Shown: positions 3,001 to 13,900 of the stretch, in pieces
Layout: each line of letters begins with the position of its first letter
How positions within the stretch are numbered: position 1 is the first letter of the stretch
Source: Saccostrea cucullata
Taxonomy: Eukaryota
Length of the DNA: 64,000 nt
Direction: 5' to 3'
NCBI RefSeq assembly: GCF_032062105.1
Contig: NW_026926145.1
Coordinates: 62,001-126,000, forward strand
Position numbers: made by a program

Positions 3001-6000
3001 TTCACGAAATGAAATCTCGACGGTCCATCGTATTTTTTTATTTTATATTAAAAAGATGTTGGTGAGTACTAGATGCATTGCACTATTGATAAATTGTGAG
3101 TTTGAAATTTCATTCGCTTTGCAAATATCGAAAAACAACCCGAAATCGGCGAGAATGCCGCCTCTGGTTGGAATACCGAGTTTTCGGAAAGGCGCCAATT
3201 TTGACGGTTTTCTTGCACAAATAATACAAAAATAGTTAAAAAGCCATGAAAACGTCAGATATTTCGGACATTAAATAATAATTTTCAGTCACCTTCAATC
3301 GCTTGATGCAGTCATGCCCCCTGTAACCGCACAAGAGCTACATGATCAGTACATGGTGTTTTTTTTTCTCTCCGACGTCTGCTGCAACTCCAACTTTCTG
3401 TTCTTCATCAGCAGGAGAGTTCCACAAAGGGGAGATAATCTGCTTACGCGCGTTCATATTTGTGATACATTGTAAATCAAATTATTTGCTGTAGACTATC
3501 CAACTACCATTTTTTATGATTGGATTTATAACTTCAAAACCCGTAGTTTTTATTGTATGTATGATCGTGATAGAGTTTGGTTGCGTTTTTGCGTAAAATA
3601 TTTATGAAAATTATGGTGATTTTACAGCATTTGGTAAAAACAAAGCAAAGTAGGGCCCAATGCTTTAAAATAAATATGGAAAAAATTAAATCTGCCTTAT
3701 ATATTGAAATTGAGAAAAACATAGTTTAATTCTGTAATTAATTTTGACAGGGTTATCAATAATCAAATTTCACACTTTTCAAGCATTAAAATCGCTGTTG
3801 CTATGGTAACAAGGAAGATGTGACCCACATAACTCATGTTTGAAAAGACATTCATCTATACTTCCATGCGTCCAAATATTAAAGCAAAATATTTTTTTTC
3901 ACATTCCACTCACTTTATATACAATACTCAATGGTTACTGACACGGCCTCTTAACTCAAATGAAATTCCAAAATTAGATAAAATCACCTCTTTGATTAAG
4001 AAAAAGATATTGAAGAAAATGAAGTTTTACAAGTTGTAAAAAATATGAAGAATGATAAATCTCCTGGAAGTGATGGTTTCACAACTGAATTTTTGTTAAT
4101 TTATCTGGAGTGATCTTAAAGTCTACGTACATTATGCGAGCTATAAATTGTATATCGTCAAAAAAAAAAAAAAGAAATTCCTATTTCACAAAGACTAGGA
4201 ATAATTTAATTCATGTATACCCAATGGGAATAAACCAAGACAATTTTTGAAAATTTGAAACCATAACTCTACTAAATTACAGAATAACACTCAAACTGAA
4301 TTCCTAAAAGGAAGATATCTTGGTGAAAACACCAGATTTATTTATGATTAAATGGCATATACAGAAGCTAAAAATATACCAGGATTATTGGTTTTAATCG
4401 ATTTTGAAAATTTAAAGCTTTTGATTCAATTTCATTGTTCATGGTCTTTTATTTATAAAGTATTGAACTATGTTAGTTTTGGAAATAATATAATTAATTG
4501 GATAAAAATTCTTAATACAAATTTTAAAGCATCTGAGTTTTGCAATGCAGATTTTTATCAGAACAAGTGACATATATTATATTCATGGTGATGGGAGGGG
4601 CTTAAAAAAAAAAAATCTCTGTGCTGGTAAAAATCTCAAATCTACCAGCCCATGATAGCAGGGACCTATATACTTTTGTTAAAAAAGGTTACTAAATGAT
4701 CTGTTCAAAGTACTAGTACTATTTACAAATATATCAATAAAGTTTAGATCAACTTGTTTAGAAATTACTATAAAACTTTAATTTACTAATCAAAATTGAA
4801 TTGGATAAGATAAATACAGTGTATAGGGTAATTTAAATTAGTCTGGCCTGAAATGGAAGTAAATGATCACCCAATCCTACATGATCACAATGATTTGATC
4901 AGTTTGTGTGTAGTACACACCATCAGGTACTGTTAGTAGAGTTTGTGTTTGTCAGACAGAGTGGGGGGTACAGGTAAATCATTTGCGATAGGTATATACA
5001 GTATCAGGTGTGTCATGCAATGCTCAAGTCTGGAATATAATTATCAGTGTAGCTAATTAACTTCAAGAATCAGGACTATTATAATCATAAATAAAGGTAA
5101 GAAGCTGACTTTTACCCGCTTAAATACTTACATGAGTGTGGTTGTTTTTTGTAATGTAGACCTTTGAAGCCATAGGTCATGATCATGCTAATATGAATTA
5201 AACATTTTAAGTTATGAAAATATGTCAATTGTTGTGATTTTGTAGGCATAGTTCCCTCTGTACCCTGTTTAAATTCAAAAATCAAATAGTTTTAGGATAA
5301 AAGTAAAAAAGGTGTATTACTGTTAATCATGTTAATAAGTAACCACTGTACCCATTGTAACCCGGATACATTGACAGTCCTTCAGAAATTTTCTACTTTC
5401 ATTTTCCAATGGTTTTGTACTGTACCCTAATTGTAACCTTATTAGTAAAGGATAAATAGAGGTGTACCCTAGGGTACAAAAGTATCACCTAAAAACGCAG
5501 TACCAATTTCTTGCCATATATGACCCCTTATCTCAACTGGTAGAGCACTGGACTAGCAAGCCAGAGCCCTGGGTTCAATCCCCAGCAGAGGCAAAAAAAT
5601 TGTCTCTGTTTCAGAAACGCTATATCAAGCTATTCAGAATAACTTATTATATATATATATTCAAATCAATGAGAATATAGCAGACCTGCTGGAAAGCACT
5701 CTGGTAAGAAACACGTCTCAACACTATAACCTGATGTAGACTAACCACAACACTTGATGATGATACTCTATAATTTTGGAATGTTTCATAATCATCGATT
5801 AATTTTTATCTGCTGCTTTGTTACATTGAAAGGAACTGTCAAATTTTCCGAGGAAATTCGAAATAAACACATGCTTATTCAAGTTTCTTCACATGTGACT
5901 TACCATGAGGAAATTGCAGGGCATCTGTGCTAAAGATTTTTCTGCGTTCCTCATCTCTTTCTGTCTCTCTTTTTGTTTCTCTGCCTTCTTTCGCTGTCCT

Positions 6001-10901: not shown

Positions 10902-13900
10902 AGACCTGAACATATAAAACTTATTTGTAAAAACAGACACATATATCTTTAATTTGAGGAGAAAAAAATTAACTAATAGAATTAACGGATAATTTATTTT
11001 TCAAATATCTCGCCCGCGAAGATATTTTTCGATTATTTTTCGAGGGTTTGTGTTAAAGATCAAAAACAGGAAAGATGTTTTGAAAATAAATTAACATTTT
11101 CCATTAATTTCTGATTAAAACTGACCTTGGACCCCCCACCCCCCCACCCCCTAGATATGGAGATATGAAGCATACCCTCCAACCCCCCAACCCCGTCGGA
11201 ATAATTTCAATAAAGAAAGGAGATTATTTTATTTTTTTCGTGTGAAGAAATTTCTTGGTTGGATTTTTTTTTTTACTGGGATGGACCCCTCCTGGAAGAA
11301 AATGCCTGGATCCGCGTCTGGTTATTTGAAAATGTACATAATCATATAAAAATAGGTAACAAATTAACTCCCCCATATAGACCAGAAATAGGAGTTCGAC
11401 AGGGAGACGTATTAAGCCCAAATATTTTTAAAATATTTCTCAATGATTTTTCCAAATTACTTGATGAAGAAAATACTGGACATGTTTCTCTTTCTGGAAA
11501 GAAAATTTCCTAACATATTATGCTGATGATCTTGTTTTATTATCGGATAGCCAAAAAGGACTGCAGAACAAATTAGACCTACTTTACAAATACTGTACAG
11601 ACTGGTGCTTAGAAATTAATACAAGTAAAACCAAAGTAGTGATCTTTAATAAAAGTGGTCATTTTATTAATGAAAAGTTCACACTTGAAAATTCCCTTAT
11701 TGAATGTGTAAACAAATATAAATACTTAGGTATTATTTTAACCTCATATGGATCCTTCAAAGAAGCAAGATCTCATTTATATTATAAAGCACTTAAAGCT
11801 TCTTTCAAATTATACAAAGACCTAAAAGCTGTTCATCCTCCCATCAAAACACTCCTTCACCTTTTTGATCACATGATAAAGCCTGTTGCATTATATGGCT
11901 GTGAAATTTGGGGAACCCTTACAGCACGCATACAAGATAAAAACAAACATTTATACGATATTTTTAAAGAGTGTAATGCAGTTGGCAGTAAGCAGCTGAC
12001 AGTTGGCAGTAAGCAGCGATCAGTTGGCAGTAAGCAGTTGGCTGTCGTATATGGCATTCCATACATATCTCTAAATTCAGATTTTCTCTAAAATATCCTA
12101 TATGAATTTTTTTTTTAAATTATGGCTCTACAAAAAGGAGGCCTCCACGTGGCTAGAGCTGCATGGTAACATTGGGATAATATGAATAATAATTAATACA
12201 CAAATTCATATTTTCTTAATGGCTAACGTCCTTACATTTTTTGTTAAGTACTTATTACATAATTAATATTTTACTATTATCATTGTAAAACAAATATAAT
12301 TGAGGAAATTATTATGAATTATTTTAATATCATCTATACAATATTATATTGACAAACAGCTCGCTTCGAATTTAGATAGGGCGTGGTGTACGGTAAACTC
12401 GTAGTGGCACCCGATTTCCGTTGATTCTGAGGTAAAATTGGCTATAAAAATTTACGGATGTCAATATCATTCAATTAAACATCACCTTAGGCCTTATTGT
12501 ACCCCATTACATTCAATTTTTTGGGGTTTCCACCACTTTATTGGGGTTTCACCCCTCCTGTATGGGTATTCTCCAAAAATTGGGGGGTTTCGGGTTTTTC
12601 CAGTCACCCATTTGAATAGTTCATCCCATTTAAATTCGGGTGGGAAAGTATAAAGAATGAGCGGAAACTATCTTTACTATGGAGGGGGAGTTTTATTTCA
12701 AATAGTTATTTTTTATGTCTTTTTTTTTAATCTTTGTGCAAACTGAAGATGATTGAATATTTACATTTGTTTTTACATGCATATATATTGTGTAAAAACA
12801 AAATGGTTATTGCAACTTATTTGTGCCTCACTTTTTATTTAAAAAATAAAAATTCTGCAAAAAACAGTTCTAAATAAACAGTTATTGACTATTCATTTTG
12901 AAAAATTACTACCAGTACCATGTGCAAATGACACCCCCCCCCCCCCCCCCACCCCTCCAGATCGAATATTAGATTTTGTGATACGAAATACTTTGGTATA
13001 TCGTAACTTTTTCCTTTCCATTACTGCACATGCGCGATTCTTTAACATAAACAGGAAATCGCCCGAAAATAGATTAGGGGGGCCTGTCAAATATTGTAAG
13101 TTGCAACAACGTTTGACGACAAATGAAATAATGGGTTTGGAGCCTTTAGAGTTTGCCGAATGCTTGACAGACAGTCCTTCGTTCAGGGAAAAACTACATG
13201 ATCACGAAAAAGAGCTTGATAGGACAAATAAGGCCATCAAGTCTCTGGTGAATGATGGCAAGGAGCTTGTCAATGCAGCCAAACGTAAGACATTAACTAA
13301 ATAACTGGTGTCGGAATATTTATTGTGCATTTATTTATGTTTTCATTAATAACATTTATGTAACATTTTTTGCATGGGCTAAAAATTAATAGTGCAAATG
13401 ATTTTGCTTATATGCATGGAGGTGTGTCCCACAATGTGCTAATAAGGTGAATAAAAATTACAGGTAGCAATTTCAGTGACATTTGAATAATGTCCTTCTT
13501 AACAATTCTCATTTGGTATTTAAAATCTGAAAAGGCTGCAGAAAGACATAATTACCCTTAATTATTTTTTTAAAATACATTTTATAACTGCACAATGTAC
13601 TATGTGCAGTTTAAAAACATCCATTCTTCAATACCCCTTTGATTTACTTCTGCTGTACCTTAAGTAAAAAAAATCATTTTGTTAAAATGTCTCTTGTTAA
13701 TGTTTGAAATAATCCAACAGAAGTGTTGTTTTCTCCGCTTAAGATTTTAAGAAATAAGTTACCTGTAATGTATTCAATTTTATATGTGATAGACAGGAAA
13801 TGTAGAGGTAAATACATGGTGAATGTGAGTCACAGGTCATTTAGGGACCACCTACTAAAACTTGGATCAGGATTGATATACATGCAAATATCTTCTGTGG

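What the first reader, a model, noticed from the sequence alone, without database searches (positions are those of the whole stretch)
5904..13284. Head-to-head ZNF330 / GRAF promoter split by a 6.5-kb transposon 88 bp upstream of the ZNF330 start codon
Seen: the two ATGs (6017 minus, 13131 plus) diverge and are 7113 nt apart. Removing the TSD-bounded element 6106-12609 plus one ATTTGAAT copy leaves only ~600 nt. ETS-like cores lie on both sides (ACTTCCG at ~6082, CGGAA at ~12662, CAGGAA at ~13052). Inference: an ancestral compact bidirectional promoter was cut in two. ZNF330 would now initiate within <90 bp or from the transposon TIR, which could uncouple the two genes. The ZNF330 exon is absent from the ORF track and easy to miss.
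Basis: partly seen in the sequence, partly recalled or inferred. Interest (0 to 1): 0.72.

Follow-up and report, generated by a model that had tools for sequence, protein, structure and literature searches.

The report
Transposon between two divergent oyster genes
A 6.5-kb defective DNA transposon sits between the start codons of two back-to-back oyster genes (ZNF330 and a GRAF-type RhoGAP), which is a real but ordinary kind of event whose effect on the two promoters is untested.

Summary
The window comes from an ostreid oyster, not from human DNA. ZNF330 exon 1 (5904-6017, minus) and GRAF/ARHGAP26-like exon 1 (13131-13284, plus) lie head to head, with 7113 nt between their ATGs. Between them is a 6504-nt element (6106-12609). 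It has 187-nt terminal inverted repeats (178/187 identical) and an exact 8-bp target-site duplication, ATTTGAAT. Removing the element and one duplicate copy leaves 601 nt.

The element is not a simple transposon:
- It encodes no transposase.
- It is a long-armed palindrome (right arm about 1.45 kb).
- Its left arm carries a nested 1.6-kb TIR element with its own 8-bp duplication, plus two further blocks of about 1.1 kb.
- Both arms contain pieces of a LINE reverse transcriptase.

The superfamily is unassigned. The duplications look hAT-like and the long TIRs look MULE-like.

The idea that a shared bidirectional promoter was cut is plausible but untested. No orthologous DNA, transcript data or second haplotype could be reached. 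The ETS-like cores are no commoner than chance. The only synteny evidence is that the two genes share a contig in 4 of 4 molluscs, one of them a 905-kb scaffold. Most likely each gene keeps its own proximal promoter. Interest is low.

The parts
5904..6017 (-). ZNF330 (NOA36) coding exon 1, 38 codons, with a GTAAGT donor at 5903-5898. No further ZNF330 exon lies in window 1-5903.
   Evidence: Pfam NOA36 E 4.1e-11, 1 of 101 frames. 34/38 identical to C. virginica ZNF330. Seven ZNF330 proteins run by tblastn hit only this exon; every other hit had E >= 0.15.
6018..6097 (-). The 80 nt left between the ZNF330 ATG and the duplication. It holds the ETS-like core ACTTCCG (6082-6088) and an AG with a pyrimidine-rich run at 6034-6046.
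   Evidence: Sequence. Motif frequency is at chance.
6098..6105 (.). Left copy of the target-site duplication ATTTGAAT
6106..12609 (.). 6504-nt non-autonomous composite class II element with a long-armed palindrome architecture
   Evidence: TIR and TSD. Concentric inverted blocks. No transposase domain in 65 ORFs scanned.
6106..6292 (+). Left TIR, 187 nt, with three GAAACCCC subterminal motifs
6327..7917 (.). Nested 1591-nt TIR element. Each end carries six TTTCGGGAC-type repeats. It is flanked by an 8-bp duplication CTGCACAC (6319-6326 and 7918-7925).
   Evidence: The right arm of the host element keeps a single CCGTACAC at the homologous place, which serves as an internal empty site.
8095..8401 (.). 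160-nt tandem repeat, 1.9 copies, inside a block found only in the left arm (about 7945-9073)
10296..10647 (-). Inner part of the left arm: an inverted copy of the LINE-derived segment, internally deleted, including 21-nt repeats at 10364-10431
11155..12106 (+). Inner part of the right arm, holding a reverse-transcriptase fragment. RVT_1 matches lie in frames 11214-11510 and 11468-12088, separated by one frameshift.
   Evidence: Pfam RVT_1 E 1.5e-4 and 7.6e-9, profile positions 100-204 of 205. Only 26% identical to the other LINE in the window.
12423..12609 (-). Right TIR, 187 nt, with three mirrored GAAACCCC motifs
12610..12617 (.). Right copy of the target-site duplication ATTTGAAT
12618..13130 (+). 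513-nt GRAF-side flank. It is AT-rich with a poly-C run at 12935-12960. The last 180 nt are CpG-enriched.
   Evidence: Sequence. CpG observed/expected 1.41 for 12950-13130 against 0.60 for the window.
13131..13284 (+). GRAF / ARHGAP26-like coding exon 1. The gene continues to at least 33315.
   Evidence: 100% identity to oyster ARHGAP26-like proteins. tblastn with P0001 gives 22 HSPs from 13131 to 33315.

Best explanation
A non-autonomous cut-and-paste DNA transposon inserted into a short (about 0.6 kb) intergenic region. That region lay between two divergently transcribed oyster genes, ZNF330 and a GRAF-type RhoGAP.

Shown:
- The element has 187-nt TIRs with repeated subterminal motifs and an exact 8-bp duplication. 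It lies 88 nt from the ZNF330 ATG and 521 nt from the GRAF ATG, counting one duplicate copy on each side.
- It is a palindrome with arms of at least 1.45 kb.
- Its left arm was later enlarged by a nested 1.6-kb TIR element with its own 8-bp duplication, and by two further blocks of about 1.1 kb. It also lost most of a LINE-derived piece that the right arm keeps.

Inferred:
- A trans-acting transposase that makes 8-bp staggered cuts mobilised the element. Both duplications fit the nTnnnnAn target pattern described for the hAT element Hermes, but the termini and the TIR length are not hAT-like, so the superfamily stays open.
- The target was probably the open chromatin of a divergent promoter region, a preference I recall for hAT, P and Mutator elements and did not test here.
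- Most likely each gene keeps its own proximal promoter. For ZNF330 this would be the 80-88 nt with the CGGAAGT site. For GRAF it would be the CpG-enriched 180 nt before its ATG. On this reading the insertion is tolerated and only removed the distal upstream sequence of ZNF330 and any shared elements.

Whether the nested pieces arrived before or after the element landed here is unknown.
For: - TIRs are 178/187 identical without gaps.
- The duplication is exact, 8/8, at a chance of about 2e-4.
- GAAACCCC: 6 of the 7 window matches lie in the two TIRs, three in each and mirrored, against 1.54 expected for the window.
- Four concentric inverted blocks have almost contiguous right-hand partners, while the left-hand partners are spread by three inserts.
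- The nested element has CTGCACAC on both sides, and there is a single homologous CCGTACAC in the undisturbed right arm.
- TTTCGGGAC: 12 of 22 near-matches in the window lie in the two ends of the nested element.
- Of the 65 ORFs of at least 40 aa inside the element that were scanned, none matched a transposase domain and 2 matched RVT_1.
- Both genes are real: NOA36, and GRAF exons spanning the full length of oyster proteins.
- CpG enrichment lies next to the GRAF ATG.
- The Hermes target pattern nTnnnnAn, its 8-bp duplication and its subterminal repeats are described in passages of PMC10368747.
- hAT and MULE elements occur in all mollusc genomes analysed, and DNA elements including MITEs are over-represented relative to LINEs in bivalves, according to passages of PMC10294476.
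Against: - No second copy of any part of the element exists in the 64-kb window, so repetitiveness in the genome is not shown.
- No transposase or autonomous partner was found.
- The termini (CGGTA... and GGGTG...) do not fit the hAT YARNG start, which I recall rather than tested. An 8-bp duplication is short for a MULE. So no superfamily fits cleanly.
- No TSS, expression or orthologous-locus data are available, so 'each gene keeps its own promoter' is inference only.
- The ETS-like core near ZNF330 is a single 7-mer at window-wide chance frequency.
- Only exon 1 of ZNF330 is in the window, so the intactness of that gene is unverified.
Confidence: 0.7

Rival explanations
1. The 601 nt was one compact, shared bidirectional promoter. 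The insertion cut it and uncoupled the two genes. ZNF330 now fires from an 88-nt stub or from the TIR.
For: - Head-to-head orientation with an inferred 601-nt pre-insertion spacing.
- The two genes share a contig in 4 of 4 mollusc species present in both hit lists: C. virginica, Pinctada imbricata, Liolophura sinensis and Ylistrum balloti. In the last, the contig is a 905,164-bp scaffold.
- Bidirectional promoters are common for housekeeping genes in an invertebrate chordate (25% of neighbouring gene pairs in amphioxus) and are known to become disentangled in evolution, per the section read in PMC6292497.
- An ETS-type core lies 65-71 nt upstream of the ZNF330 ATG.
Against: - Sharing a contig is not adjacency, and orientation and spacing elsewhere are unknown.
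- ETS cores are at chance frequency.
- CpG enrichment lies close to the GRAF ATG, not in the middle.
- There are no TSS or expression data.
- GRAF is not an obvious housekeeping partner.
- No paper in the library links ZNF330 to oyster, microsynteny or ARHGAP10 synteny.
- ZNF330 and the ARHGAP names are absent from the 2 supplementary files of PMC6292497 that are held as text.
Confidence: 0.2
2. The element lies inside the ZNF330 transcription unit, not in its promoter. Either the ancestral TSS lay more than 88 nt upstream, so the insert hit the 5' UTR, or there is an upstream non-coding exon and the element sits in a 5' UTR intron and is spliced out.
For: - On the minus strand, CTGTCACTCTCAG|G lies 16 nt upstream of the ATG. 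This is an AG preceded by a pyrimidine-rich run.
- 88 nt is short for a promoter plus a 5' UTR.
- ZNF330 intron 1 is already longer than 5.9 kb, so long introns occur in this gene.
Against: - No transcript evidence of any kind.
- The candidate acceptor is weak, and such strings are common in AT-rich DNA.
- No upstream exon can be named.
Confidence: 0.15
3. A much shorter palindromic element of about 3 kb landed here. It then grew to 6.5 kb in place through later insertions, so the promoter region was pushed apart in several steps rather than one.
For: - The left arm holds 3.1 kb more than the right arm, in three discrete blocks.
- One block has its own 8-bp duplication and an empty homologous site in the right arm.
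- TIR identity of 95% and block identities of 71-98% suggest age and mixed history.
Against: The same structure would be seen if the element had already been composite when it transposed. No other copy is available for comparison.
Confidence: 0.4
4. Not a transposition at all, but an assembly artefact or a local inverted duplication.
For: The palindromic structure is the kind of sequence that assemblers can mishandle.
Against: - An exact 8-bp direct duplication sits precisely at the outer ends of the TIRs.
- The TIRs carry mirrored subterminal motifs.
- The arms have diverged, which is not expected from an assembly duplicate.
Confidence: 0.03

Closest known systems
Non-autonomous TIR DNA transposons (MITE-like, foldback-like) of bivalves
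   Same: TIRs, a flanking target-site duplication, subterminal repeats and no transposase ORF. Bivalve genomes over-represent DNA elements, MITEs included, relative to LINEs (passages of PMC10294476).
   Different: The element is 6.5 kb with 187-nt TIRs and palindromic arms of about 1.45 kb carrying LINE debris and nested elements. No named family could be matched because no repeat library or oyster genome was at hand.
hAT superfamily, e.g. Hermes
   Same: An 8-bp duplication. Both duplications here (ATTTGAAT, CTGCACAC) fit 5'-nTnnnnAn-3'. Short subterminal repeats are needed at the ends (passages of PMC10368747).
   Different: Hermes TIRs are 17 bp and these are 187 nt. The termini here do not start with the YARNG I recall for hAT. 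No hAT transposase is present.
Mutator-like elements (MULEs)
   Same: TIRs of a hundred nucleotides or more, starting GGG or GGT. Non-autonomous copies that carry foreign fragments. These features are recalled, not tested.
   Different: No MULE transposase is present.
Evolutionary 'disentanglement' of ancestral bidirectional promoters (amphioxus and vertebrates, PMC6292497)
   Same: Head-to-head neighbours that become separated over evolutionary time (section read).
   Different: There the losses are tied to whole-genome duplication and are defined by CAGE. Here the separation is by a transposon and no TSS data exist. The gene names are absent from the 2 supplement files that could be searched.

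Membership tests
Class II cut-and-paste (TIR) transposon | Terminal inverted repeats at both ends | tested here: met
   187 nt, 178/187 identical, no gaps
Class II cut-and-paste (TIR) transposon | Direct target-site duplication immediately outside the TIRs | tested here: met
   ATTTGAAT at 6098-6105 and 12610-12617. The 8-mer occurs 11 times on the plus strand in 64 kb.
Class II cut-and-paste (TIR) transposon | Encodes a transposase (autonomous copy) | tested here: not met
   0 of 65 internal ORFs of at least 40 aa match a transposase domain. The element is therefore non-autonomous.
Class II cut-and-paste (TIR) transposon | Multiple dispersed copies, or an empty site in a related genome or haplotype | not testable with these tools
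   No other copy in the window. No eukaryotic genome collection was available. The TIR-encoded frame found 1 unrelated-looking hit among 1.84 billion representatives. An exact TIR 21-mer gave 0 hits in prokaryote genomes.
hAT superfamily | 8-bp duplication with the nTnnnnAn target pattern | tested here: met
   Both ATTTGAAT and CTGCACAC fit. The pattern is taken from PMC10368747. This is weak evidence: about 1 in 9 random AT-rich 8-mers fit.
hAT superfamily | Short TIRs (about 10-25 bp) beginning YARNG, plus a hAT transposase. The feature is recalled. | tested here: not met
   The termini are CGGTAACTGG and GGGTGACTGG with 187-nt TIRs. No hAT domains.
Mutator-like elements | Long TIRs with a 9-11-bp duplication. 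The feature is recalled. | tested here: inconclusive
   Long TIRs are present, but the duplication is 8 bp, not 9-11.
Bidirectional promoter pair | Two genes in 5'-to-5' orientation | tested here: met
   ZNF330 exon 1 on the minus strand and GRAF exon 1 on the plus strand, diverging
Bidirectional promoter pair | TSSs less than 1 kb apart | not testable with these tools
   The ATGs are now 7113 nt apart and were 601 nt apart by inference before the insertion. No TSS data are available.
Bidirectional promoter pair | The arrangement is conserved in related genomes | tested here: inconclusive
Adjacency and orientation could not be read.
ZNF330 / NOA36 | Match to Pfam NOA36 above the curated cut-off | tested here: met
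   43.2 bits against 32.6, but only profile positions 1-40 of 306. The rest of the gene lies outside the window.
GRAF-type RhoGAP (ARHGAP26/10/42, OPHN1) | BAR, PH, RhoGAP and SH3 domains in that order | tested here: met
   Window exons align along residues 1-803 of S. echinata ARHGAP26-like P0001. That protein carries PF16746, PF00169, PF00620 and PF00018/PF14604. The domain names for these accessions are recalled. The window exons themselves were not scanned against Pfam.

The most novel reading that the evidence does not exclude
ZNF330 and GRAF form an old, mollusc-wide divergent gene pair that shares a compact promoter. In this oyster lineage, or only in this haplotype, a palindromic non-autonomous transposon has physically uncoupled them. 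That would leave ZNF330 with an 80-nt ETS-bearing stub and TIR-derived upstream sequence. It would be a natural experiment on how much of a bidirectional promoter each partner needs.
Probability: 0.12. Interest if true: 0.5.

Novelty: new member of a known kind. Interest (0 to 1): 0.22.

Why it matters
If the insertion is polymorphic or lineage-specific, it offers a ready-made comparison of ZNF330 and GRAF expression with and without 6.5 kb of foreign DNA in their shared upstream region. Promoter architecture is little studied in bivalves. As it stands, this is one more transposon in the intergenic DNA of a repeat-rich oyster genome. Its practical value lies in annotation:
- it flags an easily missed 114-nt first exon of ZNF330;
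- it documents a composite palindromic element with an internal empty-site control for a nested insertion.

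Tried and rejected
I sent single frames instead.
2. I looked for ZNF330 exons 2 onward in window 1-5903 and found none. 100 of 101 frames had no NOA36 match. tblastn with 7 proteins hit only exon 1.
4. I tried a proxy for the empty-site test. Unnamed database proteins P0020-P0031, P0035, P0036, P0038, P0040 and P0041 read through 29-157 codons upstream of the ZNF330 ATG in other sources. I compared 10 of these upstream peptides with the translated flanks and TIRs. The best match was 6-7 of 8-12 residues at E 0.035-0.17, which is not significant. 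The test was inconclusive in both directions.
5. I searched the TIR-encoded 82-aa frame against 1.84 billion representative proteins. There was 1 hit at E 2e-4, a tandem-repeat protein that I judged unrelated.
6. An exact 21-nt TIR string gave 0 hits in genome contigs, which holds prokaryotes only.
7. Rfam and ARAGORN across the region found nothing in the element.
8. Pfam on 8 plus-strand frames in ZNF330 intron 1 that looked RT-like by eye gave 0 of 8 matches, so I make no claim about them.
9. Literature searches:
   - ZNF330 with 'bidirectional promoter' gave 1 human CRISPR paper, seen in the listing only.
   - ZNF330 protein name with oyster gave 0.
   - ZNF330 with microsynteny gave 0.
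   - ZNF330 with ARHGAP10 and synteny gave 0.
   - 'bidirectional promoter' with Crassostrea gave 12 papers, none on this locus by title or abstract.
10. A 'Russian doll' of four nested TIR elements was rejected in favour of one long palindrome. The four right-hand partners are almost contiguous (11155-12609), which repeated independent insertions would not produce.
No eukaryotic genome collection exists among the tools, so the decisive empty-site comparison stayed undone.
Exon 1 of each gene was searched on its own, and the other GRAF exons were only located by aligning database proteins to the window.

Full report
**Source of the window.** The window is AT-rich eukaryotic DNA (GC 0.29-0.45) with no N. 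It is not human. The 51 residues of GRAF exon 1 are 100% identical to the ARHGAP26-like proteins of Saccostrea echinata and Crassostrea virginica, and 96-98% identical to those of Magallana gigas and Ostrea edulis (19 proteins with E <= 1e-3 among 32 candidates). Five oyster proteins were aligned to the window by tblastn. The S. echinata proteins scored highest on the longest exon block (241-243 bits against 209-214) but were not identical. The source is therefore an ostreid oyster close to Saccostrea, species not determined. Exon 1 of each gene was searched on its own, and the other exons were only located by aligning database proteins to the window.

**The two genes.**
- ZNF330 exon 1 starts with the minus-strand ATG at 6017. 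It runs 38 codons to 5904 and is followed by a GTAAGT donor.
- Of 101 minus-strand stop-to-stop frames of at least 20 aa overlapping window 1-6050 (the last runs to 6436), only the frame holding this exon matched Pfam NOA36. The match was E 4.1e-11, 43.2 bits against a cut-off of 32.6, profile positions 1-40 of 306.
- The exon is 34/38 identical to the N-terminus of C. virginica ZNF330.
- No other ZNF330 exon lies in the window. Seven ZNF330 proteins run by tblastn hit only exon 1, and every other hit had E >= 0.15. Intron 1 therefore exceeds 5.9 kb and the intactness of the gene cannot be judged here.
- GRAF starts at 13131 and exon 1 ends at 13284. With P0001, 22 HSPs cover residues 1-803 between 13131 and 33315.

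**The insert.** The gap between the ATGs is 7113 nt.
- An inverted repeat of 199 nt at 94% was found at 6094-6292 and 12423-12621. Trimmed to the element proper, the TIRs are 187 nt with 9 mismatches and no gaps.
- Directly outside them lies ATTTGAAT, at 6098-6105 and at 12610-12617. The 8-mer occurs 11 times on the plus strand of the window, so the exact recurrence at the second junction has a chance of about 2e-4.
- Each TIR carries three GAAACCCC motifs in mirror positions. These account for 6 of the 7 matches in the window against 1.54 expected, and 0 of 100 shuffles reach 7. That is what transposase-binding subterminal repeats look like.
- Removing the 6504-nt element and one duplicate copy leaves 601 nt.

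**Anatomy of the element.** It is not a simple transposon.
- *Coding capacity.* I scanned 65 of the 68 stop-to-stop frames of at least 40 aa that overlap the element. I left out three frames spanning the left junction, one of which had been scanned. None matched a transposase. Two adjacent plus-strand frames (11214-11510 and 11468-12088) matched RVT_1 positions 100-204 of 205. They are only 26% identical to the other LINE of the window.
- *Palindrome.* A sensitive minus-strand self-alignment gives concentric inverted blocks:
  - 6106-6292 with 12423-12609;
  - 7915-7944 with 12367-12396;
  - 9074-9181 with 12114-12220;
  - 10296-10427 with 11979-12106, of which 83 nt are 98% identical;
  - 10448-10647 with 11155-11359.
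- *Interpretation.* The right-hand partners are nearly contiguous (11155-12609, 1455 nt). The left-hand ones are spread over 4542 nt. The economical reading is one long-armed palindrome whose left arm gained three blocks and lost about 600 nt of the RT-derived piece. Repeated nested insertions would not land next to the same right end each time.
- *First inserted block.* It is itself a TIR element (6327-7917). Each end carries six TTTCGGGAC-type repeats, which are 12 of the 22 near-matches in the window. It is flanked by CTGCACAC at 6319-6326 and 7918-7925. The undisturbed right arm has a single CCGTACAC at the homologous place, which serves as an internal empty site.
- *Second inserted block.* It contains a 160-nt tandem repeat (8095-8401).
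- *Other copies.* No part of the element recurs elsewhere in the window.

**Which kind of transposon.** Both 8-bp duplications fit 5'-nTnnnnAn-3', the target pattern given for the hAT element Hermes, which also depends on subterminal repeats (passages of PMC10368747). That fit is weak evidence, since about one random AT-rich 8-mer in nine would show it. Against hAT, the TIRs are 187 nt and the termini read CGGTAACTGG and GGGTGACTGG, not the YARNG start I recall. Long TIRs starting GGG or GGT recall Mutator-like elements, but their duplications are usually 9-11 bp (recalled). hAT and MULE elements occur in all mollusc genomes analysed, and bivalves over-represent DNA elements, MITEs included, relative to LINEs (passages of PMC10294476). 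I leave the superfamily unassigned.

**The promoter claim.** The TSD logic shows that the ATGs were about 601 nt apart when the element arrived. It could have arrived as about 3 kb or as 6.5 kb, and that is open. Nothing here shows that the 601 nt was a single shared promoter.
- ACTTCCG at 6082-6088 is one of 4 matches in the window against 3.02 expected. CGGAA and CAGGAA are too short to weigh.
- CpG observed/expected is 1.41 in the 181 nt before the GRAF ATG, 0.80 over the whole GRAF-side flank, 0.33 on the ZNF330 side and 0.60 for the window. This places a likely GRAF promoter near its own ATG, more than 330 nt from the insertion point.
- On the ZNF330 side the element begins 17 nt beyond the ETS-like core. 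If the TSS lies within the 88 nt, everything upstream of roughly -45 is now transposon sequence.
- Equally, CTGTCACTCTCAG|G lies 16 nt upstream of the ATG and could be a splice acceptor. In that case the element would sit in a 5' UTR intron. I cannot tell these apart without transcripts.

- The only indirect evidence comes from the contig lengths printed with database proteins. These are C. virginica (59,045,500), Pinctada imbricata (65,244,353), Liolophura sinensis (58,388,612) and Ylistrum balloti (905,164).
- The first three only say 'same chromosome'. The scallop scaffold puts the genes within 0.9 Mb. Adjacency and orientation remain unknown.
- Upstream read-through peptides of unnamed database entries gave no significant match to either the TIR or the far flank.

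**Context from the literature.** In amphioxus, 25% of neighbouring protein-coding genes are arranged in bidirectional promoters. [quoted passage not shown] Other supplements that I could not see may hold the list of pairs. No paper in the library links ZNF330 with oyster, microsynteny or ARHGAP10 synteny. From recall only, human ZNF330 and ARHGAP10 both lie on 4q31, several megabases apart.

**Verdict.** This is a real, well-delimited transposon insertion in a short divergent intergenic region. Such insertions are an ordinary kind of event in repeat-rich invertebrate genomes. I rate it as a new member of a known kind, with low interest unless the insertion proves polymorphic and expression-relevant.

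Noticed in passing
window 5529-5585 (+), in ZNF330 intron 1: tRNA-like match (Rfam RF00005, 29.3 bits against a gathering score of 29, E 0.007) that ARAGORN did not call. It may be the head of a tRNA-derived SINE.
   Followed up: no
window 17974-18782, 19962-20884 (GRAF introns) and 62079-63134: Three tandem arrays of 146-166-nt units, 5-7 copies each at about 90% matches. A 160-nt array lies inside the element at 8095-8401. From recall, satellite-like arrays of this unit size are carried by mobile elements in oysters. Whether these four arrays are related was not checked.
   Followed up: no
window 35980-46019 (-): Exons of an amiloride-sensitive sodium channel (ASC/DEG-ENaC) gene. Pfam ASC matched 3 frames, the best at E 4.1e-22. 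Tc1/mariner transposase remnants (HTH_Tnp_Tc3_2, DDE_3) lie at 37599-38174 between the channel exons.
   Followed up: partly
window 49353-52418 (-): A LINE with endonuclease (Exo_endo_phos) and reverse-transcriptase frames of 631 and 390 aa, separated by a stop at about 50523-50525. It coincides with the GC-rich stretch of the window (GC 0.44-0.45).
   Followed up: partly
window 47468-47540 (-): ARAGORN reports a tRNA with a four-base anticodon (ggag) and no assigned amino acid. It is probably a pseudogene or a false call.
   Followed up: no
window 13097-13102 (+): A perfect GTAAGT lies 29-34 nt upstream of the GRAF ATG. If it were used as a donor it would exclude the conserved start codon, so it is probably chance.
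   Followed up: no
window 12935-12960, 9625-9664, 10601-10621 and 10778-10798: A poly-C run in the GRAF-side flank resembles a C-run segment inside the element (70% over 40 nt). It is complementary to G-runs in the centre of the element (families D5, D11, I24). Part of the '601-nt ancestral spacer' may itself be repeat-derived.
   Followed up: no
window 9175-9182 and 10436-10443 (+): The same 8-mer as the outer duplication, ATTTGAAT, also sits at the edges of two arm-homology blocks inside the element. Five of the 11 plus-strand copies in the window fall within 6098-12617. This is unexplained and may only reflect AT-rich composition.
   Followed up: partly
database proteins P0023-P0030 (unnamed sources): Read-through frames upstream of the ZNF330 ATG differ by short insertions and deletions about 30-45 codons upstream of the start. 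This suggests length polymorphism in the upstream region of a related source.
   Followed up: no
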